From Chiloscyllium plagiosum (taxonomy: Eukaryota): a stretch of DNA of 64,000 nt. This document shows positions 6,640 through 61,959 of the stretch, piece by piece. The stretch spans positions 81,291,912 to 81,355,911 of the forward strand of contig NC_057718.1 of the NCBI RefSeq assembly GCF_004010195.1. Reading direction: 5' to 3'. The notes beneath the pieces were generated by a model. That model saw only the letters and a program-made list of their open reading frames with translations. It was not told the DNA's origin and ran no database searches. Numbering within the stretch: position 1 is the stretch's first letter; every line of letters starts with the position of its first letter. Made by a program: the position numbers and the translations under genes.

Positions 6640-9060
6640 ATACTTAACCCTTTCTCTGTCTACTCTGTCAAGAATCTGAAGAATCTTTTATATTTCAATA
6701 AGATCACCTCTCATTTTTCTACATTACAGCAAGTACAAGCCCAACTTAATGAATGTTTCCTCATAAGACAACCTTTTCATTCCTAGTATCAGCCTAAGAA
6801 CCTTCTCTGGATTCCTCCAAAGTCATTAAATCTTTCCTTATATAAGGTGCCCAGAATTACTCCTGTTAATCAAGCTGTGACCTTGTGTAATTTGTGTAAT
6901 GCCTACCTACTTTGATACTCAATTCCCTTTGAAATAAAGGTCAGTATTCTATTTGCCTTCCCTATTACTTGTTGAACTTGGATGCCAGCTAATGTGATTC
7001 ATGCAGGAGGACTCCCAACTCCATTTCTTCTGTAGATTTCAACAGTCTTTCTCTATTTAAATAATATTCACATTACCTTCAGTATATTCCTCCATCTCTC
7101 ATTTATATACTCCTACCATCACAGTAATTAGTCTGGTGAACCTTCACTGCACTCCTTTGAAAAGTATGTCCTTTTTTTCATAATGGGACCAAACTACATT
7201 TAATACTCCAGGTATGGTCTCATCAAGGCTCTATATAATTGAGCAAGGCATCTTTACTTATACTAAAATCCTCTGTGGTAAAGGTCAACATGTAATTTGT
7301 CTTTCTAATTGCTTTCTGCACCTGCATATTAGTTTTCAGAGAACATTGATACTCAGGGACCTTGGACTGCAGTATTTCCCACTCTCTTGTTATTTAAGAA
7401 GTACTCTGCACCTCTGTTCTTTCTATCAAAATGGATCACCTCCTAATTTATATCCATGTACAATTTATTGCCTCTACTATACGCTTTCCCACTGTCAACC
7501 TGTCCAAATCTCCTTAAAGACTTTATGCATTATCCTTGCAAAACACATTCCCACATACTTTTAATTTATTCAAAGGATGGAATATGGGCCAGCATTTATT
7601 GCCCATCCCCTCTTGCTAGCTAGCTTGCCAGACCATTTCAGAATTAAGAGAGTAGTTAAGAGTCATCCACATTTCTATGGATCTAGAGTCAAATGTAGGC
7701 CACAAGAAAGGATGGCAGTTTGCTTCCTTAAGAAACAAGATGGGTTTTTACAACAAACAACAATGGTTAGACTTTGGTTTCAGATTTTAATTTTCATTGT
7801 ACTCAATCTGCTGGTGGGATTTGAACCAAGGTGCCCAGTACCTTGCTTGGATCTCTGGATTACATGTCTAGCAACAATAACTCTAGTTCATCACCTATTG
7901 ATAGGAAATTAGTTATGCATAGCTTGAGGCTAACCATTCCACAAGCAATGGTGCACCATTGCTTCCTTCTGCACCACATGCTCGTCTTCTATCCAACTGA
8001 GCAACTGACTCCCCTTCCAAATAGGTTTTGGAAATGCGATCTTGCTCTCCAAAGCCAAATCATTGATATTGATTGTGAGCAACTGGGGCATAGGCCCTGT
8101 TTCTCATGGTTCCCCACTAGTTATAGCCTGTCAACTTGAGAATGTTTTGTTTTTTTCGACTCTGTTTTTTTTCTATTAAGTGCTCCTCAGTCTATGCCTA
8201 CATTGCAACTTATCCACTGTGCTCTAATTTTTATTTAGAGTCACAGAGATGTACAGAAAGGAAACAGACCCTTCAGTCCAACTCGTCCATGCCAACCAGA
8301 TATCCTAACCTAATCTAATCCCATTTGCCAGCATTTGGCCCATATCCCTCTAAACACTTCCTATTCATATACCCACCCCAGATACCTTTTAAATGCTGTA
8401 ATGTACCAGCATCCACCACATCCTCTAGGAGCTCATTCCATACACAAACCACTCTCTGCGTGAAAACGTTGCCCCTTAAGTCCCTTTAAAAGTCTCCCCT
8501 TCTCACTCTAAACATATTCTTGATGATTGGCATTTGCCAAAAACATCAATTCTCCTGCTCCTCAGATGCTGCCCTGACCTGCTGTGCTTTTCCAGCACCA
8601 CACTCTCGACTCTAATCATCAGCATTTGCAGTCCTCACTTTCACCTAAACATATTAGGTAAATACTCAGGGAAAAGACCTTGGATATTTATCTTATCCAT
8701 GCCCCTCAGGATTTTGTAAACCACATACTTGTGTGAAACCTGATTGAAAGCATTCTAAAAATCCAAATATATTGCATTCACTGTTTTCCCCCTTGTCTGT
8801 TCTGCAGGTTACATCTTACAAAAAACGTTTTGTCAAACATGATTTCGCCCTTTCATAACTCCATACTGACTATTCTATCAGCTTATTTTCTAGTTTCAAA
8901 TTTATCATGTCCCTTTTCCTACTGTTGATGTCAGACTAACAAGTCTGTAGTTCTCCGCTTACTCCTTCTTTCTTTTCTTAAGTATTGAGATTACATCCGC
9001 AATTTTCGATATGCAGGTACAGTTCCAGAAACCGTGGAATTTTGAATGATGATTATGAAT
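6640..9060 (-). mobile_element. Cluster of decayed CR1/LINE fragments, including a younger CR1 3' end at about 8235-8720
   Basis: Typical reverse-strand CR1 3' sequence (acagacccttcagtccaactcgtccatgcc...); older RT fragments on both sides. Confidence 0.75.
8519..8644 (+). mobile_element. Short Penelope-derived terminal-repeat element with a degenerate hammerhead core, inserted in a CR1
   Basis: Same family as 28976-29105; 11-bp TSD ctaaacatatt at 8508-8518 and 8645-8655. Confidence 0.75.
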
Positions 9061-11194: not shown

Positions 11195-12130
11195 ATAAGT
11201 AGTGGCTGGAAGAACACAGCATGCCAGGCAGCATTAGGAGGTGGAGAAGTTAACGTTTCTGATATAACCCTTCAGAACTCCATGTAGGGGTAGGGCGCTC
11301 TACAGATAAAGAGATGGGGAGGGAGGTGGTGTTGGGTTGGGTTTGAAAGAGCAGCAGAATGGTAAGATGGTGATAAGTGAGCACAGGTCGTGGGTATGAT
11401 CTGGTTGGTCGATGGGAGGGATGAATCCATTTGGTAGCTGGAAGGAAGGGTCGGTAGGTGGAATGGGAGGGAGGAGGCGGGGCTGGAAAGGGAGCAGGGG
11501 GATAGGTGGGAGAGTTATTTGAAATTGGAGAATTCAGTGTTAAGTCTTCCAGTCTCTAGGCTGCCCAGGTGGAAGATGAGGTATTGGTCCTTCAATTTGT
11601 GGTCTGATTCATTGTGGCAATGGAGGAGGCTGGGTTGACATGTCGGAAGGGTAGTGGGAAGGGGAATTGAAGTGGGCGCTGACCAGGAGGTCAGACTGGC
11701 CATTTTGAGCCCGGCAAAGATACTCGGCGAGACAGTCACCTCGTCTCTATTTGGTCTCCCCAGTGTAGACAAGACCACGTCAAGAAGGTGGGATGCAGTA
11801 CACTAGGTTGGAGGAGATGCAGATGAATCTCTGTCTCACCTGGAAGGTCTGTTTAGGACCTTGGATGGAGATGAGGGAAGTGATGTATGGGCAAGTGTTG
11901 CATCTTTTTCGCTACAGGGAAGGTACCAGGAGGGTTGGTGGGGAGTGTGGCACAAACCAGGGAGTGGCAAAGGAAATGGTTCCTGCTGAAGGCAGAGAGG
12001 ACTGGGGAGGGGAAGATGTTCTGGCTGGTGGGGCTTGATTAGAGTTGGTGGAAGTATTTGAGGATGATACATAGGACGCAAAGGCTGGTAGCATGGATAG
12101 TGAGGACAAGGGGGACTCTATTATGTTTGC
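11195..12130 (-). mobile_element. Penelope-like element 3' part (GIY-YIG endonuclease remnant and terminal repeat)
   Basis: Minus-strand peptide LLHCHNESDHKLKDQYLIFHLGSLETGRLNTEFSNFK resembles a PLE GIY-YIG C-terminus; terminal repeat related to the 28873-29105 family. Confidence 0.75.
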
Positions 12131-12479: not shown

Positions 12480-13660
12480 AGTGAGTAGTGAGGATGGCAG
12501 CTGCTGGAGAAGTCAAGAGTGGATAAAGTGTAACGCTGGAAAATGCATAGCAGGTCAGGCAGCATCTGAAGAACAAGAGTGTTTATGTTTCAGGCTTAAC
12601 CCTTCATCAAGACTGGGGAGGCTGAAGGGGGCTGAGTAATAAATGGGGGGTGGGGCTAGGGGAAAGGTAGTTGGGATGGTGATGTGTGAAGGCGGGAGGT
12701 GATTGTGATAGGTTGGTGGAAGTGTGGAGCGGATAGATGGGAAGGAAGATGGACAGGTAGGTCAGTGGAGCCAAGTTGGAGGGTAGGATCTGGATGGGAT
12801 GGGATGGGTGCTGGGTAGATTTGAAAAATTATGAATTCAGTGTTGCGTGGTTGTAGGCTCCCGAGGCGGAAGGTGACGTGTTCATCCTCCAGTTTGCTGG
12901 TGGCCTTGTTCAGGCTATGAATGCCAAGTTCAGGCCGAGAATGTCATGGGGGGAATGGGAGGGGGAGTTGAAATGAATGACTAAGGTAGGTGTGGTTGGT
13001 TGGTGCGTACAGACCAGAGATGTTGGTGCATACAGACCAGAAATGTTCCCTGAACCTTTCCGCGAGTTTGTGCTCCATCTCTCCAATGGAGACTACATTG
13101 AGAGCAATGGATGCAGTAAATGAGGGTATGCAAGTAAATCTCTACTGGATTTGGAATGATCATATGGTGTCTTGGACAGCAGTTGGGGTGGGGATGTGGG
13201 CACAGGTTTTGCACCAGGGGAAGGTGCCAGGTGTGGAGAAATGGTTTGTGGGGAGTATGGACCTAACAAGGGAATCAAGGAAGGAATGGTCCCTATGGAA
13301 TGCAGTTAGGGTTGGGGAGAAAAATAGATATTTGGTGGTGGGGTCTGACTGTAGGTGGCAAAAATAACAGAGGATGATATGCTGGATTTAGAGATTAGTG
13401 GGGTGGAATGTGAGGACTGGGGGATTCTATCCTTGTTGCAGTTGGAGGAATGAGGTTAAAGGGCGGTGTTGCGGGAAATGGAAGAGATTGAGGGCATTGT
13501 TGCTAACAGGGGAGGGGAAATTACAATCCTGGAAGTAGGAGAACATCTGAGATTTCCTGGAGTGGAATCGCTCATCCAGGGAGCAGATACAGCGGAGACA
13601 GAGGAATTGGGAGTAAGGGATTGTGTTTTTACAGAAGTGGGTGGGAGGACATGTAGTTAA
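12480..13660 (-). mobile_element. Second decayed Penelope-like element of a related family
   Basis: Collinear with 11195-12130; IYCIHCSQCSLH(IG) GIY-like motif; degenerate hammerhead ttgatgaagggttaagcctgaaac on the minus strand at about 12587-12610. Confidence 0.75.
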
Positions 13661-15544
13661 GGTGTGGAATGTAAGATCATTATTTGGCCAGTTGCATTGT
13701 GTTTTTCCAAGAGTATGACATTTTTTTAAGCATTTATCATGGTGTTAGAAAAAGCTATCTGTATGAAGAACGTGTCTCCTGCAATGTTTTATCGTTTACA
13801 ATGTACCAAGTGGGGAGAATTCCATTAAAGACCATCAAGGATGTTGACACGATTGTAGGAAATTTTGGATCACCAATACCCACCTTCAAATTAAAAAGCA
13901 GAATTCTTTTAATGGAGCAGTCATTTTAATAAACGGTCACCATCTCACAATATGTTGGATAAAATGGGTTTTGGTTGCTATGATTTAAAAACAGATTTGT
14001 GAATGAACTCCTTACTACTTAATGGTGTTCATACGCGAGGAATAGCAATGTCCTTTAAGTATTGAGTTTTATTATTTTCTGCTTCAGGATTATATTCAGG
14101 TACTAAAATTTAATTCTGATGCTTACATTTAGAGGGAAGTATTCCAAATGAAAAAGTTCTGAACCGTCTCTGGTTCTCAATGATATCCTGCTAATATTTT
14201 AGAATTATCTTAAGAAACGCTGTGTATATTACAGCATTTATTACTTTCATTCAGTGGTGCCTACCTTTCCTTTCTATTAGGGTGGACACAATAATTTATA
14301 ACAGCAAAGTTGTTATTATTAGGTTAAGGATAATTTCTCCTAATTGTGCTTATTTCCATAAATTATCACTGTAATTTGACCAAGTATTAATAGTATATAA
14401 TTTATGGTCCCAGGAGTTGACACATAACTGAGAAATCAATATTTTATACAAATCAAAGAGTCATGGTAGTAATTTTAGGATTGATTAAATACACATGGGT
14501 GTAAAATATTCATTTTTCTTGACTATCAACTTATTAATGAGCTGAAGGAGCCTAAATGGATTAGACTCCAGGGAATATAACAAGTCACATCACAGTCCAG
14601 TGCAGTCCCTGTATCATTTGTCACCAACATCATGCAGAGCCCTGCGGAGGAGTACCATCTCATGAGATGTCAGAGCAGCATTTTGTCCAGAACTTTGGTT
14701 GGGCTTCAGTCTCCCTACTGAATTATTATCAGAATTCAGTGCAATCATTTCGGACAGCACTTTCCAATTGCTAAGTGCTCTGTAGTAGTGAGATTAGGTG
14801 GACGAGAGAAAATTAAATCCTGTGACAAGAAAGATTATACCCTGCATCCTTGCAATTTAGTTTTGGCCATACCACACAGTCACTTACAATGTGCAAATGA
14901 AAATTTTAATTTCACCTATAAAATTATCTGAAAATGTTGGTTTATAAATTCAAAATGGAACTGAAAGCTTACATTTAACCCCAATTTCAAAACATTTATA
15001 TTCCTGAATAATTGAATCTTTAATTTTTCAACTGGGGTATAATTAAATCTTAAGGCAAAGGATTATGTTTTAAAACAAATTAACTGGGGTGAAAAATTAT
15101 AATTTAACAATCATAATAATTCGGGTAGAAGTAAAATATGGTTACTTTAAATGAATGGTTTGTCATATACACAGATTAAATCAGGCTTATGACATATCTC
15201 TTGTGGGAAATATTGCATCGTGGATTATTTGAAGTAGTAATTTGTGTGGATGTGATGGAAGCACATTAAAAAGGTTTGGACATATGAATGCATGCATTTC
15301 ATCTTAAACTTGGTGATGCATGTTAATGCTTCCATGTCTTGTACTATTAAGATCATCTTTCCATTACCTGTGACCATGGAAATTGGAAAAAGATTCCAAG
15401 CACAGGTTATATTGTCATGGGTTACTCCTGTGGGATTTGTTTTATGTGATCAAAGGATACCATAGGTAGTAGCATCGAAAAATGGTGTTTGTTCATCTTT
15501 TCAGTGGAGCTAGAATTAATTGGGCACAAAGAAATCATAAATAA

Positions 15545-15620: not shown

Positions 15621-15764
15621 GAGGAACAAAATAGAGGCAAACCCAACTGGGAACACCTAAATGAAGACTTGCATGTATTAATCACTGTGGAAGATGCTCA
15701 GAACAGAGCAGAAATAAAACTAAAGAGGGCAGTGGAGGAAGTTAAAAAGTTGCTTGTACCAGCG
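15621..15764 (+). CDS. QKI: QKI (quaking, STAR/KH RNA-binding protein) internal coding exon, 144 nt, phase 0/0, equivalent to human exon 4
   Basis: Translates as [48 protein letters not shown] (48 aa), matching the vertebrate QKI KH-domain sequence as I recall it. Preceded by a pyrimidine tract and ttacag acceptor, followed by a GCG|gtaagt donor. Paralog assignment not tested. Confidence 0.95.
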
Positions 15765-18064: not shown

Positions 18065-18604
18065 ATGTGGAGGTGCCACTGTTGGACAAAGTTAAAATTC
18101 TCACAATGTCAGATAATAGTCCAACAGGTTTATTTGGAAGTACAAGCTTTCAGAGTGCTGCTCCTTTGTCAGGTAGCAAGTGAGGCAGGATCATAGGACA
18201 CAGAATTTATAGTACAAGGTCATAGTGTCTTACAACTGATGCAATGTATTGAGCAAAGCTAGATTGCTGTTAAATCTTTAATCACTTAGAATGGGGTTGC
18301 AGGTTTTGATTCATTAATATGTAAATCCCAGAACTTCCTTCAAGTCCCATTCCCAAGATCTAAAAGAAGTTCTGGGATTTACATATTAATGCATCAAAGC
18401 TTGCAACCCCATTCTAAGTGATTAAAGGCTTACCAGCAATCTCGGTTAGTTCAATATATCGCATCAGTTATATGACACTTTGATCTTTTACTATAAATTC
18501 CATGTCCTATGATCGTGCCCCACTAACTACCTGAGCAGCACTCTGAAAGCTTGTACTTCTACATAAAACTGTTGGACTGCAACATGGTGTGATTTTTAAC
18601 TTTG
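18065..18604. mobile_element. Penelope-derived element made of two inverted terminal repeats (about 250-bp arms)
   Basis: 18087-18340 is the imperfect reverse complement of 18363-18604; the arms carry hammerhead-like motifs ending in gaaagctt. Confidence 0.75.
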
Positions 18605-18855
18605 TAAAAACTGTTTAAGATCTTGGGTTTAATGATCAGATTTGATAGTCCATATTTGTCACTGGCATAAAATGCGAATGTCCTCCAATCCACGTTAAAA
18701 CTGTGGGTTGATGGCAGTCGCCACTGTTTCTACACCAGTCATGAGTGGGCATTTGAGTTGACCTATTAGGCTGCCCAACCCATGATCAGTGACCTACCCA
18801 TAGGGCCATGACCGACACCACAGCTTACCCGCTCTGCCTTAATGTTGACAAAGCG

Positions 18856-24899: not shown

Positions 24900-27065
24900 A
24901 TTTAGTTTGAGGGAGATCAGATTGGGTCTCCAACAGTGTCTTCAACTTAAATAAGAGCTGTTACAGAGGATTGAAGAAAGAGTTGTTTGAAGCATGCTGG
25001 GAAAATAGACTAAGGGGAAAGTCAGTGGATGATCAGTGGCAAATATTTAAGCAAATTTTTCATAAAGCTCAACAAAAAATTAATTGTGTAAAAAAGGAGG
25101 ACACTGAAACATATGATCAACCCATTGTTAACAAAGACAATCGAGACATACAAAATGACAAAACCAAGTAGTGAGCAAGGTGATTGGGATTTTTTTAGGA
25201 ACCAGCAGCAGATGACTAAGGACTTAACAGAGGGAGAAAATTTATGAAAGTAATTGGTAAGAAATATAAAAACAAACAGAGCTTCTATAAGTATATAAAA
25301 AGAAAGTGGCTAAAGTACAGGATCTTTCGGGGATTCAACTGGGGAATTGATAACGGAAATTCAGATATTTTATTTTAGTCTTCATGATGGAGAACATTAT
25401 AAACATTGCAAAGTTAACAGATAAACAAAGTGCTAATGGAACAACGATCTTTTTATCATCTTTTTCAGGAGGGACCAAGTATTTGACAAACTAATAGGAT
25501 TAAAGTCACCAGGTTCTGAGGGTTTACATCCAAAGCTTTTAGAGATTTTTACAGAGACATTAGAGACATTGCAGAATTCTCTGGATTCACGGAAGTTTCC
25601 ATTCGAAAACACTAATGTGATGCCTGTTTAAGAAGAAAAGGAGACAGAAAGCAGAATATGTAGGCCTGTTCCTGGAGTTCATTATTAAGGAAGAAATAGC
25701 TGGACTTTTAGAAAAGCTTACGCAAACAGAGTCAACATAGTTCTATGAGAGAGAAATCATGCTCAACAACTTGCTATTGTTCTTTGAGGATGCAAAGAGC
25801 AGAGTTGATGAAAGCCATTCAGTCAGGGTTTTGCACAAGATAATTGCTCCTGTTATTGGGATAATATATTAGTATGAATTAAAGATTAATTAGCATGAAA
25901 CAGGTCTTTTTCAGATTGGAAAGAAGGAACTATTGAAGTCACACAAGGATCAATCTTAAGACTTCAATTATCTATTGTTTAAATGACTAAGCGGAAAAGG
26001 CAAAATGTACAGTATCCAAATTTGCTGCTGATGCAAAAACAAGTGGGAAGGCATGTTGCAATCAGGACATAGGAATCTGGAAGGCGATTTGAGTAGGTTG
26101 AGTAAGTGGCAAAATTTGAAAGATGTAGTTTAATGTAGAAAAGTGAGAGATTGTGCTTATTGGTATTATTAATCATAAAATAGACTAAATTTTAAATTGA
26201 GATTGCAAAAATTGCAGTGCAGAGATCCACATGTTCTTGTAAATGAGACGTAAAACATGCAGCTACAACACACTATTGAGATGGCAAATTGAATTTTGGT
26301 TCTTATTGCTTGGGTGTTAGAGTTTCAAACCAGCAAAATTTTGTTACAATTATACAAGTTGTTGGTGAGGCTGCATTTGGAGTAGTCTGTGTATATTTTG
26401 TCCCCATATCTAAAACAAAGAACTGTGAATGCTGAAAGTCAGAAATGAAGAAATTGCTGAGAAAACTCAGCTGATCTGCAGAAAGGTCACTGGACCCAAA
26501 AAATTAACTCTGCTTTCCCTCTACAGATGCTCCCAGACCTGCTGGGTTGTCTCAGCAATTTCTGTTTTCATATATAGGGGTATTGACATTGGAGACCATT
26601 CAAATGTGAATCACTAGGTTGATTCATGCAATGAATGGGTTGACTTATCAAGAACCGCTAAACAGGTTAGACTTTTATCCATTAGTGTTAAGAAGAATGA
26701 AGGGTGATCTTATTGAAACATCCAAGATTCAGAGGGGCTGTTCAAGATAGAAGTTGTAAAGATGTTTTCGCTCGTGGAGGTATCTCGAGCTAGGGGACGT
26801 AATTCCAAAATAAGGGGACAGTTATTTAAAACTGAGATGCCAATGAATTTCTTCTCACAGAGGAGAGTGAATTACTGGAATTTCCTATACCAGAGCATTG
26901 TGGAAGCAATATTATAAAGTATTTGAATAGGAAACAGATGGACCCTGAAAAATCAGGGACTTGATAGCTATGCTGAGCTGGCACAAAAGAGATGAGGCAT
27001 GGCATTGATCTTGTTAAATGATAGGAAAGTTTGAAGGCCCAGTTGGCCTACTCCTGCTCCAATTT
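24900..27065 (+). mobile_element. Long decayed CR1 ORF2 and 3' end, interrupted at about 26420-26570 by a short palindromic Penelope-like repeat
   Basis: Collinear CR1 ORF2 remnants (KSPGSEGLHP, KFAADAK, RMKGDLIET) and 3' tail ggcctactcctgctcc. Confidence 0.8.
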
Positions 27066-28320: not shown

Positions 28321-28872
28321 GTTTGGTGGATATCTGTTTAATGACTAGTTGTTCCAGAAATAGTGTCTGATAAAATGGGGCTGAAATTGGACTTTTTTAG
28401 ACACCATAGAGGCATGGTAACTAATTATTGAGGGAAGATGGGTGTGATATGAGAGAACTTGCTGGACCCTGTGGCAAAAAACTCTGCAAAAAATATACAA
28501 TTTGGACTTAACCAAACAAGCATAAAATTCTGTTCAAAGTCTTTCTTCATTCTGTCAAAGGCATTTTATAAATGTTAAGTCATTATTTAGAATGTCCAAA
28601 AAAACTTTTAGTAAAATTCAGGTTAAAGATACCAGAGTAATTTCATCTTTTAATTTGAACTGATGTTAGTTCAGTTTGATATCAAATTCTTAATATTTTC
28701 TTATCTGACGTCATTCATGGATTTTTGAGAATGCTGCTTTTAAGGCAGTATGACAACAGAACCTTGGAAACCTGCTGCAGTGCCCTTAGGTACATAAAAT
28801 TACTTCAAACTTAACAGATTGATAAGTCAAACAGTCTCAACTGCATTCTAACTAAAGGTGAAATTTGATGTG

Positions 28873-29105
28873 CAGGAAATGTGTTTCTGGAAAAGCGCAG
28901 CAGGTCAGGCAGCATCCAGGGAACAGGAGAATCGACGTTTCGGGCATAAGCCCTTCTTCAGGAAATAAGCCCTTCTTCCTGAAGAAGGGCTTATGCCCGA
29001 AACGTCGATTCTCCTGTTCCCTGGATGCTGCCTGACCTGCTGCGCTTTTCCAGCAACACATTTCCAGCTCTGATCTCCAGCATCTGCAGACCTCACTTTC
29101 TCCTC
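28873..29105 (+). mobile_element. Young short Penelope-derived element: 90-bp inverted repeat with hammerhead cores and a 14-bp TSD
   Basis: Arms 28875-28964 and 28976-29065 differ at one position; TSD tgaaatttgatgtg at 28859-28872 and 29106-29119. Confidence 0.85.
28976..29010 (+). ncRNA. Minimal hammerhead ribozyme motif (Penelope type)
   Basis: CUGAAGA-a-GGGC-uuau-GCCC-GAAA-C-GUC; predicted cleavage after 29006; identical motif on the minus strand in the left arm. Stem I is short and activity is untested. Confidence 0.65.
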
Positions 29106-29441
29106 TGAAATTTGATGTGGCCATGCTGCTTTAGTATCAACTGATGAATCATTTCACCGTACAACAATAGCAAGTGGCAAGAGTAAAAAGATTTCTGTGA
29201 ACCACCTACTGATGGTAATGGCAAACCAGTTCTGTACCTTTGTCAAGAATATCCATGGACAAGATTGAAGTCCGTGATTGACCATGCCTTTTGAGGCCAT
29301 GGTATCTGGAGAGAGTGAGTGAGTGTGAATTCTATGATAATTAGTTCTAGATAATTTGACCTCTATTGTTTAGACTGGGAAAACTTGCCTTGTAGAAATC
29401 CCTTTGGTGAGAACGCTTTGAGGAATTGGGAATTTGGACTG

Positions 29442-29579
29442 GAAATCAGGTTTCCTGATGAAGGGCTTTTACCCGAAATGTCGATTCTCCTGCTCCTTCG
29501 ATGCTGCCTGACCTGCTGTGCTTTACCAGCACCACACTGTTGATTCTAATCTTCAGCATCTGCTGTCCTCACTTTCGCC
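29442..29579 (+). mobile_element. Short Penelope terminal-repeat element with a hammerhead core (29455-29482)
   Basis: CTGATGA AGGGC TTTT ACCC GAAA TGTC; 11-bp TSD aatttggactg at 29431-29441 and 29580-29590. Confidence 0.8.
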
Positions 29580-30281
29580 AATTTGGACTGTATTCTTGGC
29601 CAACCACAGACTGCTAGACCAATAAATAAAATAGCATTAACTTCAATTGCCAGCACAACGCTTTGAAAATTTGGTGTTGGTTTAAAACAAAATATAGACT
29701 TAAAAAATGATATTAGTAAAAGTGATATAATGAAACAAAGAATTATGAATTCTAGAGATCTGAAACAAACAAAAACAAATTGCTGGGGAAACTCAGTAGT
29801 TCTGGCAGCATCTGGGGAGAGAAAACAGAGTTCAGTGAAGAAAGGTCATTGGACTCAATGTAAACCTCTCTCTCCACAGATGTTGCCAGACCTGCTGAGC
29901 TTCTTCTGTAAAAGTGACCCTTTTACTCGAGTTAATATTTAACCAAAGAATGGTAAACATTTAAGATTTTATTTTTGTATTTGCAGAGGTAACAAAACCA
30001 ATTATTCATATAACTTTTTTTACAGCTTAATCTGCCAGCCATATGCATCCCAAGATGAAAAATTGTAGCATTTAGATTATGTTGCCTCTCCATTTCTCAG
30101 AATTTGCACTAGTCACACAAATCCTCATTAAATTGCATTTGCCATGCCTGTCCATTTCACTGGTGTGTCTGTCCCCACTTGAAGTTTGGAATTATCACAA
30201 TTTTAAGTTTTATATGATCTGTGAACTTTGACATGAATTTGTATATAGAATATATTGTCACTAAAATATGCCTGTAGACTA

Positions 30282-41414: not shown

Positions 41415-43775
41415 TTGGAGGGAATCCTGGGGTACAGGATTTACATGTATTTGGGAAGACAAAGACTGATTAGGGATAGTGAACATGGCTTTGTACGTGG
41501 GAACTCATGTCTCACGAATTTGAATGCGTTTTTTGCAGAAGTAGTGAAGAGAATTGATGAGAGCAGAGCAGTAGACATGATCTATATGAACATCAGTAAG
41601 GCGTTCGACAAGCTTCCTCGTGTTAGATTGGTTAGCAAGGTTAGATCATATAGAATACAGGGAGAACTAGTCATTTGGATACAGAACTGGCTCGAAGACA
41701 GAGGATGGTGGTGGAGGGTTGCCTTTCAGATTGGAGGCCTGTGACCAGTGGAGTGTCACAAGGATCAGTGCTGGGTCCACTGCTTTTCGTCATTTATATG
41801 AATGATTTGGATGTGAACATAGCAGGTATAGTTAGTAATTTTGCATGTTACCAAAATTGAATGTGTAGTGGACAGCAAAGAATGTTACTTCCGAGAACAA
41901 CAGGATCTTGATCAGATGGGCCAATAGGCTGAGAGGTAGCAGATGGAGTTTAATTTTAGGTAAATGTGAGATGCTGCATTTTGGAAAGGCAGATCAGAGC
42001 AGGATTTATACACTTCAAAGTTTGTGAGAAGATTTGTAGCTTGGGTGCTCGTTGTTGTAGTTCTGTTCGCCGAGCTGGGAATTTGTGTTGCAGATGTTTC
42101 ATCCCCTGTCTCAGTGACATCCTCAGTGCTTGGGAGCCTCCTGTGAAGCGCTTCTGTGATGTTTCCTCCGGCATTTATAGTGGTTTGAATCTGCCGCTTC
42201 CGGTTGTCAGTTCCAGCTGTCCGTTGCAGTGGTCGGTATATTGGATCCAGGTCGATGTGCTTATTGATTGAATCTGTGGATGAGTGCCATGCCTCTAGGA
42301 TTTCCCTGGCTGTTCTCTGTTTGGCTTGTCCTATAATAGTAGTGTTGTCCCAGTCGAATTCATGTTGCTTGTCATCTGCGTGTGTTGCTACTAAGGATAG
42401 CTGGTCGTGTCGTTTCGTGGCTAGTTGGTGTTCATGGATGCGGATCGTTAGCTGTCTTCCTGTTTGTCCTATGTAGTGTTTTGTGCATGGGATTTTGTAC
42501 ACTACATTGGTTTTGCTCATGCTGGGTATCGGGTCCTTCGTTCTGGTGAGTTGTTGTCTGAGAGTGGCTGTTGGTTTGTGTGCTGTTATGAGTCCTAGTG
42601 GTCGCAGTAGTCTGGCTGTCAGTTTGGAAATGCTCTTGATGTATGGTAGTGTGGCTAGTCCTTTGGGTTGCGGCATGTCCTCATTCCGTTGTCTTTCCCT
42701 TAGGAAGCTATTGATGAAATTGCGCGGGTATCCATTTATTCGCCAAAACTCTGCCGCTTCCACTCACATGCAGATGACAAGCAACATGAATTCGACTGGG
42801 GCAACACTACTATTATAGGACAAGCCAAACAGAGAACAGCCAGGGAATTCCTAGGGGCATGTATAGAGTGTCTGGATCTGCTGATCAGGTGTTTCAGTTT
42901 CTGCTGTAGTTCTTTAGCCAGTTTGTGTGATGATGTCCCTGGTAGTGATACTATTGGTCTGAGTGGGATGTCTGGTTTGTGCACTTTAGGTAGTACTTTA
43001 CTATCTAAAGTGCACAAACCAGACGTCCCACTCAGACCAACACAAATTCCCAGCTCGGCGAGCATCTATACACTTCATGGTAAAGTCCTGAGGAGCGTTC
43101 TGAACAGTGAAACCTTGGAGTGCCAGTGTTCATAGTTCCTTGAAAGTAAAGTTGCAGGTATATAGAATAGTGAAGAAGGCATTTGGTATGCTTTCCTTTA
43201 TTGGTCAGAGCATTGAGTACAGGAGTTGGGAGGTCATGTTGCGGCTGTCCAGGAAATTGGTTAGGCCACTTTTGGAATATTATGTGCAATTCTGGTCTCC
43301 TTCCTATTGAAAAGATGTTGTGAAACCTGAAAGGGTTCAGAAAAGATTTACAAGGATGTTGCCAGGGTTGGAGGATTTGAGCTATAGGGAGAGGCTGAAT
43401 AGGCTGGGGCTGTTTTCCCTGGAGGCTGAGAGGTGATCTTATAGAGGTTTATGCAATCCATGAGGGGCATGGATAGGTCTTTTCCCTGAGGTGGGGGAGT
43501 CCAGAACTGAAGGGCATGGGCTTAGGATGAGGGGGTAAAGATATAAAAGAGACCTAAGGGGCAACTTTTTCATGCAATTGGTGGTGCATGTGTGGAATGA
43601 GCTGCCAGAGGAAGTGATGGAGGCTGGTACAATTTCAGCATGTAAAAGGATATGTGAATGGGTAGGGCTAAGAGGGATATGTGCCAAGTGCAGGCAAATG
43701 GGACTAGATTAGTTTAAGATATCTGGTTGGCATGGACGAGTTGGACTGAAGGGTCTGTATCCGTGCTGTGACTCT
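41415..43775 (+). mobile_element. 5'-truncated CR1 LINE (RT to 3' end) split by a Penelope insertion
   Basis: [39 protein letters not shown]; resumes at 43078 with KKAFGMLSFIGQSIEYRSW. Confidence 0.9.
42018..43066 (-). mobile_element. Rearranged Penelope-like element (GIY-YIG endonuclease, RT scraps, terminal repeat)
   Basis: NVVYKIPC..HYIGQTGRQLTIRIHEH...REILEAWH...INKH; PKVHKPDIPLRPIVS; 11-bp TSD tatacacttca at 42007-42017 and 43067-43077. Confidence 0.9.
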
Positions 43776-43947
43776 AAGGTCAAGTTTTGCTCCTCCTGTA
43801 GTTGGAATATTTGCATATTGATAAAGAAAATTTTCTTGAACGCATTTAACAAATTCTCCACCCTCCAGACTTTAACCTTAGGACAGTCCCAGTCAATGTT
43901 TTGGAAATTAAAATCCCTTACTATTACAACCTTACTGTTCTAACATC

Positions 43948-45066
43948 ACGTATATACTCCAGTAATAGTCAAATGTTTTTGACTGCTTAGAGTCATAGAG
44001 ATGTACAGCATGGAAACCTTCGGTCCAACCCGTCCATGCCGACCAGATATCTCAACCCAATCTAGTCCCACCTGCCAGCACCCGGCCCATATCCCTCCAA
44101 ATCCTTCCTATTCATATACCCATCCAAATGCCTCTTAAATGTTGCAATTGTACCAGCCTCCACCACTTCCTCTGGCAGCTCATTCTATACCCCTACCACC
44201 CTCTGTGTGAAAAGATTGCCCCTTAGGTTTAGGGTGAGAGGGGAAAGATATAAAAGAGACCTATGTCCTCTAGTTCTGGACTCCCCAACCCCAGGGAAAA
44301 GACTTTGCCTATTTACCCTATCCATGCCCCTCATAATTTTGTAAACCTCTAAGGTTTAAAATCCCTTACTATTACAACCTGATTGTTCTAACCTCAGCCT
44401 CCGATGCTCCTGGGAAAACAGCCCCAGCCTGTTCAGTCTCTCCCTATACCTCAAATCCTCCAACCCTGACGACATCCTTGTAAATCTTTTCTGAACCCTC
44501 TCAAGTTTCACAACATCTTTCCAATAGGAAAGAGACCAGAATTGCACGCAATATTCCAACAGTGGCCTAACCAATGTCCTATACAGCCGCAACATGACCT
44601 CCCAACTCCTGTACTCAGTACTCTGGCCAATAAAGGAAAGCATACCAAACACCACCTTCACTATCCTCTCTACCTTTTTAAGGTTAAATTTATGGGGTCA
44701 CCTATTGCATGAATACTACTTTTGAGATGCTGAAATTCATGCCTGTCAAAATTCATACCGTATCATTAGCAGAAGCCCAACTAATTCTCAAAATGAATAA
44801 AGAAGAAAAAAGAATTACAATAATTCTGAAAACCCAGTGCGGAGCACAGCAGCCAGCAGAATGGAAAACCAGGAGCAGAGCAGAACAATCGGCAGACTGG
44901 AAAACTGGAGCTGGATGTGATAGCCGACTCATAAACGTTGATCTGTTATCTGTGAAGAACTAGGGTCGACGTTCACATGCAATATATGGAAAACTACAGA
45001 TTATTCGGCCAAAAATATGGGGTCGACCTTTAAATGAGATCGACTTTTACTCGAGTATATTCAGTA
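43948..45066. mobile_element. Non-autonomous Tc1/mariner (Tc2-like) DNA transposon
   Basis: Imperfect TIRs: cgtatatactccagtaatagtcaa (left) and tcgacttttactcgagtatattcag (right). Confidence 0.65.
43988..44674 (-). mobile_element. Young CR1 3' end nested in the Tc2-like element
   Basis: FGMLSFIGQSTEYRSWEVMLRLYRTLVRPLLEYCVQFWS...; tail ends ctatgactcta. Confidence 0.9.
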
Positions 45067-59800: not shown

Positions 59801-60345
59801 GCACTAATTTTGATCAGATCAATGGGCTGGACCGAGAACAAGGGGAGCAGGTTCTCAGAGCCACAGTGCCACCACCAAAGCAACTCTTCCAATTCCCATC
59901 AGGGTACTGCATCCTGTGAGTCTAGGGTGATGTTCTGGGAATGCCATATTCTGAAATTGCCAGTGTCTGATTTGCTAATAGCTTCAAATGAGCAGGACTG
60001 CCTGTTCTGGTGACCTTATTCCAGTAAATATCCAGCTGCATGATTGGCAGAAGCTCCTATGGTTTTTCTCACCTTTGTAGGTCATAAGTTTCCCTCTTGG
60101 AAACTCTTCTGTTAGTCTGACAACTGGAAAATCTTGGTGTTTTCTAATTTCTGATTATGCATGACACAAATAGAAGCTTGTAGGATACATTTAACATTTT
60201 TACTTTTTTTATTATCTTGGGTGATGGCCAATTTGGTCTAAATTTCTGATCTTCACAGCATAGGCTAAACGTAATTGGCTTCTTTTAAATATCAATAAAG
60301 GGGTTTAGGGATATACAGATAATGTGTTCAACAGCTAAATGTGTT

Positions 60346-60655
60346 AGCGAGTTTTGAGAAGATTTGTAGCTCAGGTTGAGGTTCTGGATGTAGGTTTGCT
60401 TGCTGAGCTGGAAGGTTCATTTCCAGATGTTTCGTCACCTTATTAGGTAACATCTTCAGTGGAGTTAGACCCCATTTACCACCCTCTGAGAAAAAGAACA
60501 GGAAATGACATCACCAACCCAAAGAAACCCAAACATATAGATAGAAAGCAGGAATCATGAACAGTGCTTCGCCCGGAGGCCCACTGAAGATGTTACCTAG
60601 TAGGGTGATGAAACACCTGGAAATGAACCCTCCAGCTCAGCAAGCAAATCTGCAT
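60346..60655. mobile_element. Short Penelope element: inverted terminal repeats, each with a hammerhead-like core
   Basis: 15-bp TSD acag(c/t)taaatgtgtt at 60331-60345 and 60656-60670; cores at 60426-60459 (-) and 60584-60617 (+); internal ELDPIYHPLR matches the GIY-YIG C-terminus of the 42-kb element. Confidence 0.85.
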
Positions 60656-61959
60656 ACAGTTAAATGTGTTTCCATTAACATAAATGATGGATTTTCAAAC
60701 TTAAATCTCTTCCCAACACCTTACAAAATCAAGAGCAAAAGTGGCACAGTGGAAACCTCGAATCTGCTGAACCGGTTACTGACTAGAAATACTGAACACA
60801 CGAGTGCCCTGAAAGATTTTTCCCTTGGTATGTTTTTGGCTGGATATTTTGTAGAGGCAATTTATTATAAATAATAATTCAATAGAAAGATATGATGGGA
60901 GTGTGTGACTTACTTTTAGTTTGTGTGAAAACATCCTTTCCATATGAGAGAGAAAGCTTTTATTGTCTGCATTTATTGAATTTTGCTATTGTAAATCTGT
61001 TTTACCAAATTTGTCCTTGATGTATACTTGAGAGATTCTCGGTGTAGTACTTGTTCTATATACATCTAGCAATATTTCCCTAACCATGTAGATGGAAGCT
61101 TTTTTTGTCAAATGCGTGAATTTTTAAATTTATGTGTAGTTTTACAACTCTGTCTTTGATTTAGCCTGTGGTAAATATGCATTACCCCCAAACTTTATAA
61201 CCTGATCTCAATGTATCTATAAACCTCAATCAAAGGTAATGATCTTAACGGAGAAGGATATCTTGAATTTGTAGAAAATGTATTACAGATAATTCTTTAG
61301 GACAAAAGTGTTAAATTTATAATTGACTACAAATATTTCAATTGAAAGGATTCTGACTGTTTGTGAATAAGTGACTCCAGGATTTCTTGATGGTGTCTGG
61401 CCGTGTCTGTAATTATTTAAACTTCTAACAAACATAGATTTCTTTTACCACTGTGATACTAAATCCAATCTGTACTTCTGCTTCCTTTTTTCAATTAAAT
61501 ATTTTGTGCTGCTGATTTCATTTGTGGAGATGAAGATGATTTGACAGTTTTTACATTATTTCCTATTTTTATCTGTTTTGCTTTTTGTTGGCAGTCAGTG
61601 AGCTTTCTTAGAAAAAGCAACTCGCAATAAAATAGGTAATTGGCTAGTTTCTGCCAGTTCCCATTGACATCCAGCTTTGCTAAACATGAATCTGTTTTTC
61701 AGAGGGCATGTTCTGTTTCAAAGAAAAGGGCTTATGACTCAAGACTATTGAGTTAATATTTAGAACAATTATGTTAGGTTATTGTCTGCATTTCTTTGTG
61801 AGTGTATATACTCTATTTATACCTGTCAGAATACTTGATTTTTGTGGATTTACTGTCTAGTTGTAGTGTAAAAATACTTATTCTCTAGCTTTGTTTTTAG
61901 TATAAATAAAGATTTCTCCTTCTACACTCTCCTGGCTTAAAGAGCTTAAAGTTAGAGTT

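What the first reader, a model, noticed from the sequence alone, without database searches (positions are those of the whole stretch)
28859..29119. Young palindromic Penelope-derived mini-element with mirror-image hammerhead cores in a QKI intron
Seen: a 233-bp insert with a perfect 14-bp TSD, 90-bp inverted arms with one mismatch, and an 11-nt spacer (ataagcccttc) copied from the arm. Each strand carries CUGAAGA-a-GGGC(UUAU)GCCC-GAAACGUC. Stem III reduces to the self-complementary ACGU with no loop, so it could form only between two copies. Established: Penelope-like elements carry minimal hammerheads thought to act as dimers, and often have inverted 5' terminal repeats. Inference: this is a non-coding, ribozyme-bearing mobile unit. 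In the QKI pre-mRNA the long hairpin would sequester the sense ribozyme, which may be why it is tolerated.
Basis: partly seen in the sequence, partly recalled or inferred. Interest (0 to 1): 0.7.

Follow-up and report, generated by a model that had tools for sequence, protein, structure and literature searches.

The report
Head-to-head Penelope stub in QKI intron
This 233-base mirror-image insert is a real, recent scrap of a very common Penelope-like jumping gene, missing at the same site in a related species; it was likely built on landing from two short DNA copies of the element's ribozyme-bearing end, and its ribozyme is predicted to be locked in the hairpin and idle, so it is a mostly ordinary insertion.

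Summary
Observation confirmed: 14-bp target duplication, 90-bp arms with one mismatch, 11-nt spacer, a minimal hammerhead core on each strand, plus a 37-nt tail on the right arm only. One contig from a related species carries the empty site, so the insertion is real and recent. The arm belongs to a family on which 68,725-101,139 contigs per run lay. A relative in this window ends an RT + GIY-YIG Penelope-like remnant. Inverted end repeat, one-sided tail and target duplication are the published Penelope insertion layout. Another family 31 kb away has the same layout. The palindrome is likely made anew at insertion, not a mobile unit: its centre is rare and other copies have other centres. The two cores lie on opposite strands, so they cannot dimerise in one RNA. 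Helix I keeps 2 bp, and folding buries the core in either transcript. Family variation spares the non-CpG core (0 of 21 positions vs 4 of 5 free ones). Likely mechanism: both nicked strands prime cDNA from two start sites 37 nt apart and run to a fixed RNA 5' end. This scan noted the same kind of element in 76 earlier findings on other DNA.

The parts
28859..28872 (+). Left copy of the 14-bp target-site duplication
   Evidence: exact repeat; present once in the organism-B empty-site contig (table 8, record 1)
28873..28964 (-). Inverted arm: Penelope end repeat without the tail; sense 5' end at TTCCTGA
   Evidence: mismatches to the right arm at 28874 and 28886
28934..28961 (-). Minimal hammerhead core of the left arm (C3 = 28961, C17 = 28934)
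   Evidence: predicted buried in a minus-strand transcript, P(stem II) 8e-15
28965..28975 (+). 11-nt junction filler; with the shared TTC (28976-28978) it is a 14-nt inverted copy of 28981-28994 (snap-back or jump-back product, inferred)
   Evidence: (D5, I7)
28976..29068 (+). Direct arm: Penelope end repeat
28979..29006 (+). Minimal hammerhead core in the QKI sense strand; predicted cut site would be 29006/29007; helix I only 2 bp
   Evidence: P(stem II) 5e-15 in the plus-strand fold
29069..29105 (+). 37-nt one-sided tail
   Evidence: absent from the left arm; 29068 is a recurrent inversion joint across family contigs
29106..29119 (+). Right copy of the target-site duplication
29452..29579 (+). 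Older single-arm copy of the same family (83% identical), own 11-bp TSD, short inversion at its 5' junction; present in organism B
8517..8646 (+). Decayed single-arm copy with an 11-bp TSD, same 5' start
12487..13696 (-). Decayed, 5'-truncated coding Penelope-like remnant (RT C-terminus, partial Cys linker, GIY-YIG, 3' UTR) ending in a 76%-identical relative of arm + tail
15621..15764 (+). QKI exon upstream of the insertion

Best explanation
The insert is a recent head-to-head stub of a very abundant Penelope-like retrotransposon family, likely built at the landing site from two short cDNAs of the element's uncut, hammerhead-bearing RNA end, and its ribozyme is predicted to be an idle passenger. 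Shown: the anatomy, the empty site in a related species, the family's abundance and its link to an RT + GIY-YIG remnant. Inferred: the element's endonuclease nicks both strands 14 bp apart. One nick primes reverse transcription from the outer start site (tail end, 29105). The other primes from a second site about 37 nt inside (29068), which gives a one-sided tail. Both cDNAs run to a preferred RNA 5' end 3 nt before the hammerhead core. One 3' end snaps back or jumps back for 11 nt, and the two are joined. In any transcript one core is sense and its complement lies alongside it, so a ~90-bp duplex forms and the ribozyme would not fold. Purifying selection on the core likely acts on the master elements, not on this copy.
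For: Empty site: organism-B contig runs 28300-28858 then 29106-29478 with no gap in the record (1810 to 1811), >370 letters each side (table 8). Layout equals the published one: inverted 5'-truncated copy, 30-40-bp tail at one end, TSD, palindromes at the inverted junction (PMC8557442, PMC3846280 passages). In vitro a lizard PLE cuts and extends both strands, starts RT at two sites that bound the tail, and uses uncut RNA (PMC11167929, parts 1-2). Family contigs join the 5' end of an inverted arm directly to 29068 in 4 of 4 runs (7, 7, 11, 9 contigs; shorter side 37 nt = tail length in 2 of 4), and in 2 of 2 contig runs. All 4 short arms in the window start within about 2 nt of TTCCTGA. An unrelated family at 60346-60660 shows the same layout with a 10-bp TSD and a 38-nt tail. 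PLE link: tblastn E down to 8e-37 of RT/GIY-YIG proteins on 13696-12800. Folding: core pairs with the other arm at P 0.997 or more; forcing a cis dimer with the 29452 copy costs 137 kcal/mol with the left arm and 24 without it. Family variation of 5% or more: 0 of 21 non-CpG constrained positions vs 4 of 5 free positions in DNA run X2 (p 3e-4; 1 of 21 in RNA run X21, p 2e-3).
Against: The autonomous parent of this young subfamily was not seen; the coding remnant in the window has a different sequence upstream of the core. No whole genome was available, so no copies were aligned individually and the variety of centres rests on 15 of 1,491 joints shown and 15 of 45. The core is not significantly more conserved than the rest of the arm (0 of 21 vs 10 of 92, p 0.20; 1 of 21 vs 20 of 92, p 0.12). 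If the 5 hidden rows all fell in the core, p would be 0.03-0.05. No compensatory stem II change was seen among young-family reads; one both-sided change in a decayed copy (8517) is a single case. Folding energies ignore the PLE protein, which switches on cleavage of the lizard ribozyme. About a quarter to a third of RNA reads reaching 28976 carry native upstream sequence (rough estimate), so the 5' end is preferred, not absolute.
Confidence: 0.75

Rival explanations
1. The palindrome is itself a non-autonomous mobile unit (MITE- or SINE-like) copied whole by Penelope enzymes.
For: It has a clean TSD, keeps the tail that PLE proteins recognise, and has no ORF. Some other centre joints show high depth in one run (e.g. 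385-600 in X5).
Against: Contigs over the spacer are 0.09-0.6% of the arm's summed depth, and about half of them carry the family's native base instead (row 28966). The listed centre joints differ from each other and mostly sit in 1-3 contigs. A ~90-bp perfect hairpin is a poor RT template (established knowledge).
Confidence: 0.07
2. One cDNA folded back on itself (self-priming) and copied the whole arm, so no second priming event is needed.
For: A nested 14-bp palindrome sits at the junction, and such palindromes were read as self-priming in PMC3846280. Both arms share the same minority alleles at 29017, 29021, 29043 and 29064.
Against: A single fold-back gives one turn. Here the inner palindrome stops after 11 nt and a second full arm starts again at TTCCTGA. 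The left arm also ends exactly at the tail boundary, which recurs across the family.
Confidence: 0.13
3. The sense core cuts QKI pre-mRNA (as a dimer with the 29452 copy or with PLE protein help), and the inverted arm was kept because it silences this.
For: Two sense cores lie 476 nt apart and could in principle form a mixed helix III with one G-U pair. The core is intact, and hairpin burial is predicted.
Against: The forced dimer is 24 kcal/mol above the free fold even without the left arm. Helix I is 2 bp. Single minimal motifs showed no cleavage and dimers only low cleavage in PMC4209133. Unpaired sense copies persist in the same gene region.
Confidence: 0.05

Closest known systems
Insertion unit of endonuclease-bearing Penelope-like elements (Adineta Pen2a, D. 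virilis Penelope; PMC3846280, PMC8557442 Fig. 2 legend, PMC2377424; passages read)
   Same: Head-to-head inverted end repeat, 30-40-bp tail on one side, TSD, palindrome at the inverted junction
   Different: Here the unit is reduced to the end repeats alone (no ORF), and both arms stop 3 nt before the hammerhead core
Minimal hammerheads of metazoan PLEs (Cervera and de la Pena 2014, PMC4209133; parts 1-2 of 4 read)
   Same: Extra base between 9 and 10.1, G10.1-C11.1, palindromic 15.2-16.2, no loop 3; that paper also notes pairs 100-700 bp apart on opposite strands
   Different: Helix II is 4 bp (7-8 bp in Schistosoma); helix I is 2 bp in this copy against 4-5 bp
Poseidon_Ac (PAc) of Anolis carolinensis (PMC11167929; parts 1-2 of 4 read)
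   Same: Two RT start sites bounding the tail, both strands cut and extended, uncut RNA as template: predicts this anatomy
   Different: PAc is Penelope/Poseidon clade; the remnant tied to this family carries a CxxC linker of Neptune/Nematis type (criterion); the supplements held had no hit for 'inverted'
Non-LTR retrozymes (PMC7761336 passages; bioRxiv 10.64898/2026.07.22.740005 part 1 and passages)
   Same: Short, non-coding, type I hammerhead, PLE-derived
   Different: Retrozymes are head-to-tail tandems with two same-strand ribozymes that make circles; this is head-to-head with one core per strand

Membership tests
EN+ Penelope-like element insertion | Belongs to an element with RT and C-terminal GIY-YIG endonuclease | tested here: met
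   A 76%-identical relative of arm + tail ends remnant 13696-12487; its homologues carry RVT_1 and GIY-YIG (7 of 12 scanned had one or both; tblastn). The direct parent was not seen.
EN+ Penelope-like element insertion | Inverted 5'-truncated end repeat | tested here: met
EN+ Penelope-like element insertion | 30-40-bp tail on one side | tested here: met
   37 nt, 29069-29105
EN+ Penelope-like element insertion | Target-site duplication | tested here: met
   14 bp; single copy at the empty site in organism B
Minimal type I hammerhead of PLEs | CUGANGA / GAAA / UH core, extra base before stem II, G10.1-C11.1, palindromic 15.2-16.2 | tested here: met
   free positions vary while the non-CpG core does not
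Minimal type I hammerhead of PLEs | Helix I of 4-5 bp | tested here: not met
   2 bp in both arms; a family variant that adds a third pair is about 11% of depth
Minimal type I hammerhead of PLEs | Self-cleavage as a dimer or with PLE protein | not testable with these tools
   only folding predictions
Non-LTR retrozyme | Head-to-tail tandem with two same-strand hammerheads | tested here: not met
   head-to-head; cores on opposite strands
Non-LTR retrozyme | Circular RNA | not tested
   no suitable RNA data
MITE-like amplified palindrome | Same centre and ends repeated in many copies | tested here: not met
   spacer is 0.09-0.6% of arm depth; listed centres differ (only 15 of 1,491 joints shown)

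The most novel reading that the evidence does not exclude
These stubs are direct footprints of how Penelope elements make inverted ends. The enzyme primes from both cut strands at the two tail-bounding start sites nearest the RNA's 5' end, and both cDNAs run off at a transcription start in an initiator-like TCATT 4 nt before the hammerhead core. Tail-plus-inverted-arm joints at 29068 and the shared 5' end would then map the RT start sites and the transcription start in vivo. This account was not found in the 8 paper searches run, but earlier notes of this scan already propose it.
Probability: 0.45. Interest if true: 0.5.

Novelty: new member of a known kind. Interest (0 to 1): 0.2.

Why it matters
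As an object it is one of a great many similar stubs, and every structural feature is in print. Its use is as a dated, clean example. The empty site proves the 14-bp duplication and the exact ends. With sister copies it offers a genomic test of how Penelope elements build inverted repeats and tails, which PMC8557442 lists as unresolved. It is also a usable presence/absence marker between two related species. No effect on QKI is shown.

Tried and rejected
No whole genome held, so no genome-wide copy count. Rfam: no hammerhead family matched. Metagenome pattern scan: 0 hits. Pfam on 11 decayed window fragments: no PLE domain; word-based homologue search: 0 of 3 candidates scored; the link came from the phmmer search. 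RNA: no RNA holder listed. In raw-read run X21, 3,141 of 12,955,460 reads lay on the family in both orientations, none on the unique flank 29115-29230, and no pile-up of ends appeared; X22 gave 0 reads (no test). A fragmented poly(A) single-cell library is a weak test, so this is no evidence on expression or cleavage. A-to-I editing: A>G excess on one read strand, but non-A>G changes were equally biased and one locus gave 180 loose ends at 0.86 agreement; no matched DNA, so inconclusive. Polymorphism within organism A: pieces enter the insert by 13-26 bases in 3 of 4 other individuals (S2, S3, S4; none shown for S5), below the tool's 31-base bridging rule, and no empty-site piece was listed; fixation is not shown. 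The whale shark repeat library (supplement 20 of PMC8455134) cannot be read here; it, Repbase and Dfam may already name this family. PMC5785218 (dimer cleavage of PLE hammerheads) is not held; only its title was seen. bioRxiv supplements are closed. Assembly artefact rejected: junction-bearing pieces in other individuals and the empty site in organism B.

Full report
Observation. The described anatomy is in the sequence. A 14-bp exact direct repeat (28859-28872, 29106-29119) flanks 233 bp; the 14-mer occurs only twice in the window, and the chance figure is about 5e-6. The arms are 28872-28964 and 28976-29068, with 2 mismatches in 93 and 1 in the inner 90. The 11-nt spacer repeats 28946-28956 and makes a nested 14-bp palindrome with 28981-28994. 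Each strand has the hammerhead core. A QKI exon lies 13 kb upstream on the + strand (48/48 identical to PDB 4jvh_A; donor seen). The next exon was not found in the window with recalled motifs, so the intron placement is inferred.

Real and recent. No genome was held, so public runs were used. In run X11 of organism B one 2,198-base contig covers 28300-28858 and continues at 29106 with no letters between: the empty site with one copy of the target. Its flanks differ from the window by 12 of 559 and 13 of 373 substitutions. This is one contig from one individual. In organism A, pieces enter the insert by 13-26 bases in 3 of 4 other individuals, under the tool's 31-base bridging rule, so fixation is not shown. 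The older copy at 29452 is present in organism B.

The family. The window holds four more relatives. Two are single ~130-bp arms with their own 11-bp TSDs. Two end decayed coding remnants. A fragment of the longer remnant found 65 proteins; 7 of 12 scanned carry RVT_1 and/or GIY-YIG, and they align back over 13696-12800 with E down to 8e-37. Named homologues come from a stingray, the whale shark and a coral (3 of 6 named), which fits a cartilaginous fish host. A CxxC linker points to the Neptune/Nematis type (criterion). That remnant's end is 76% identical to arm plus tail, but its upstream sequence differs from the young subfamily's, so the direct parent was not seen.

The layout is known. 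Passages of PMC8557442 and PMC3846280 describe an inverted 5'-truncated copy, a 30-40-bp tail at one end, a TSD and palindromes at the inverted junction. PMC4209133 describes the minimal hammerhead and notes pairs on opposite strands. In this window an unrelated family at 60346-60660 has the same layout with a 10-bp TSD and a 38-nt tail, and three more decayed inverted elements are present.

The ribozyme. Across family reads, variants of 5% or more hit 4 of 5 free positions (N7, loop 2) and 0 of 21 non-CpG constrained positions in DNA run X2 (1 of 21 in RNA run X21; p 3e-4 and 2e-3; worst case for 5 hidden rows 0.03-0.05). CpG sites in the core decay at 4-16%. The core is not significantly more conserved than the downstream arm (p 0.12-0.20). 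This fits selection on master elements, with modest support. For this copy, helix I is 2 bp. The cores are on opposite strands, so one RNA holds one core and its complement; stem II probability is about 1e-14 in both directions. A forced trans homodimer is -13.3 kcal/mol against -22.4 for two free monomers. A cis dimer with the 29452 copy costs 24 kcal/mol without the left arm and 137 with it. These are predictions without protein; the lizard PLE ribozyme cuts only with its protein.

Mechanism (inferred). PMC11167929 shows a PLE protein cutting and extending both strands, starting RT at two sites that bound the tail, on uncut RNA. Here the right end sits at the tail end and the left end at the tail's inner boundary. 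Family contigs join an inverted arm's 5' end directly to 29068 in 4 of 4 runs and 2 of 2 contig runs. All four short arms in the window start within about 2 nt of TTCCTGA and keep the whole core, so the template was uncut. The native upstream sequence ends in CCTCA (loose-end consensus), which gives an initiator-like TCATT (consensus recalled). Two cDNAs, one per nick, that run to this end and join head to head explain the arms, the tail and the TSD. The 11-nt filler fits a brief snap-back or jump-back, with TTC shared at the join. The spacer draws only 0.09-0.6% of arm depth and the listed centres differ, so the palindrome is likely not a unit that spreads.

Earlier notes. My reading was recorded before the look-up (no sequence match). 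A word search then returned 76 findings in at least 12 genomes with the same kind of element and much the same two-cDNA reading. They are unchecked notes and add no support; they show that this is a common object.

Verdict. A real, recent insertion and a new member of a known kind; interest 0.2. The novel reading (genomic footprint of two-site priming and of the transcription start) has probability about 0.45 and interest 0.5.

Noticed in passing
window 60336-60670: Same layout in a different (Poseidon-like) family: 10-bp TSD, 38-nt tail on the left, 79-bp arms at 90%, hammerhead-like cores on both strands; the inverted arm again stops 3 nt before the core.
   Followed up: partly
window 18086-18605, 26413-26567, 29726-29907: Three more decayed inverted elements, two with hammerhead-like remains at the start of the direct arm; 29726-29907 has a candidate 10-bp TSD.
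   Followed up: partly
window 41912-43065 (-): Penelope-like GIY-YIG remnant with a hammerhead-like core at 42126 and a 42-bp inverted junction at 42954-43040.
   Followed up: partly
window 11202-12125 (-): Second decayed GIY-YIG Penelope-like remnant ending in a more distant relative of the arm.
   Followed up: partly
window 29442-29451: The older copy at 29452 has a short inversion between its left TSD and its 5' end.
   Followed up: no
window 43638-44131: 115-bp inverted pair at 79%, 264 bp apart, no TSD found; likely two copies of another repeat.
   Followed up: no
run X21 on window 28976-29102: One family copy appears highly expressed: 180 reads share a flank containing AATAAA behind the tail, as in a 3' UTR.
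   Followed up: no
window 28832: Individual S3 shares the organism-B base here while its contig enters the insert, so the insertion likely predates at least one flanking SNP.
   Followed up: no
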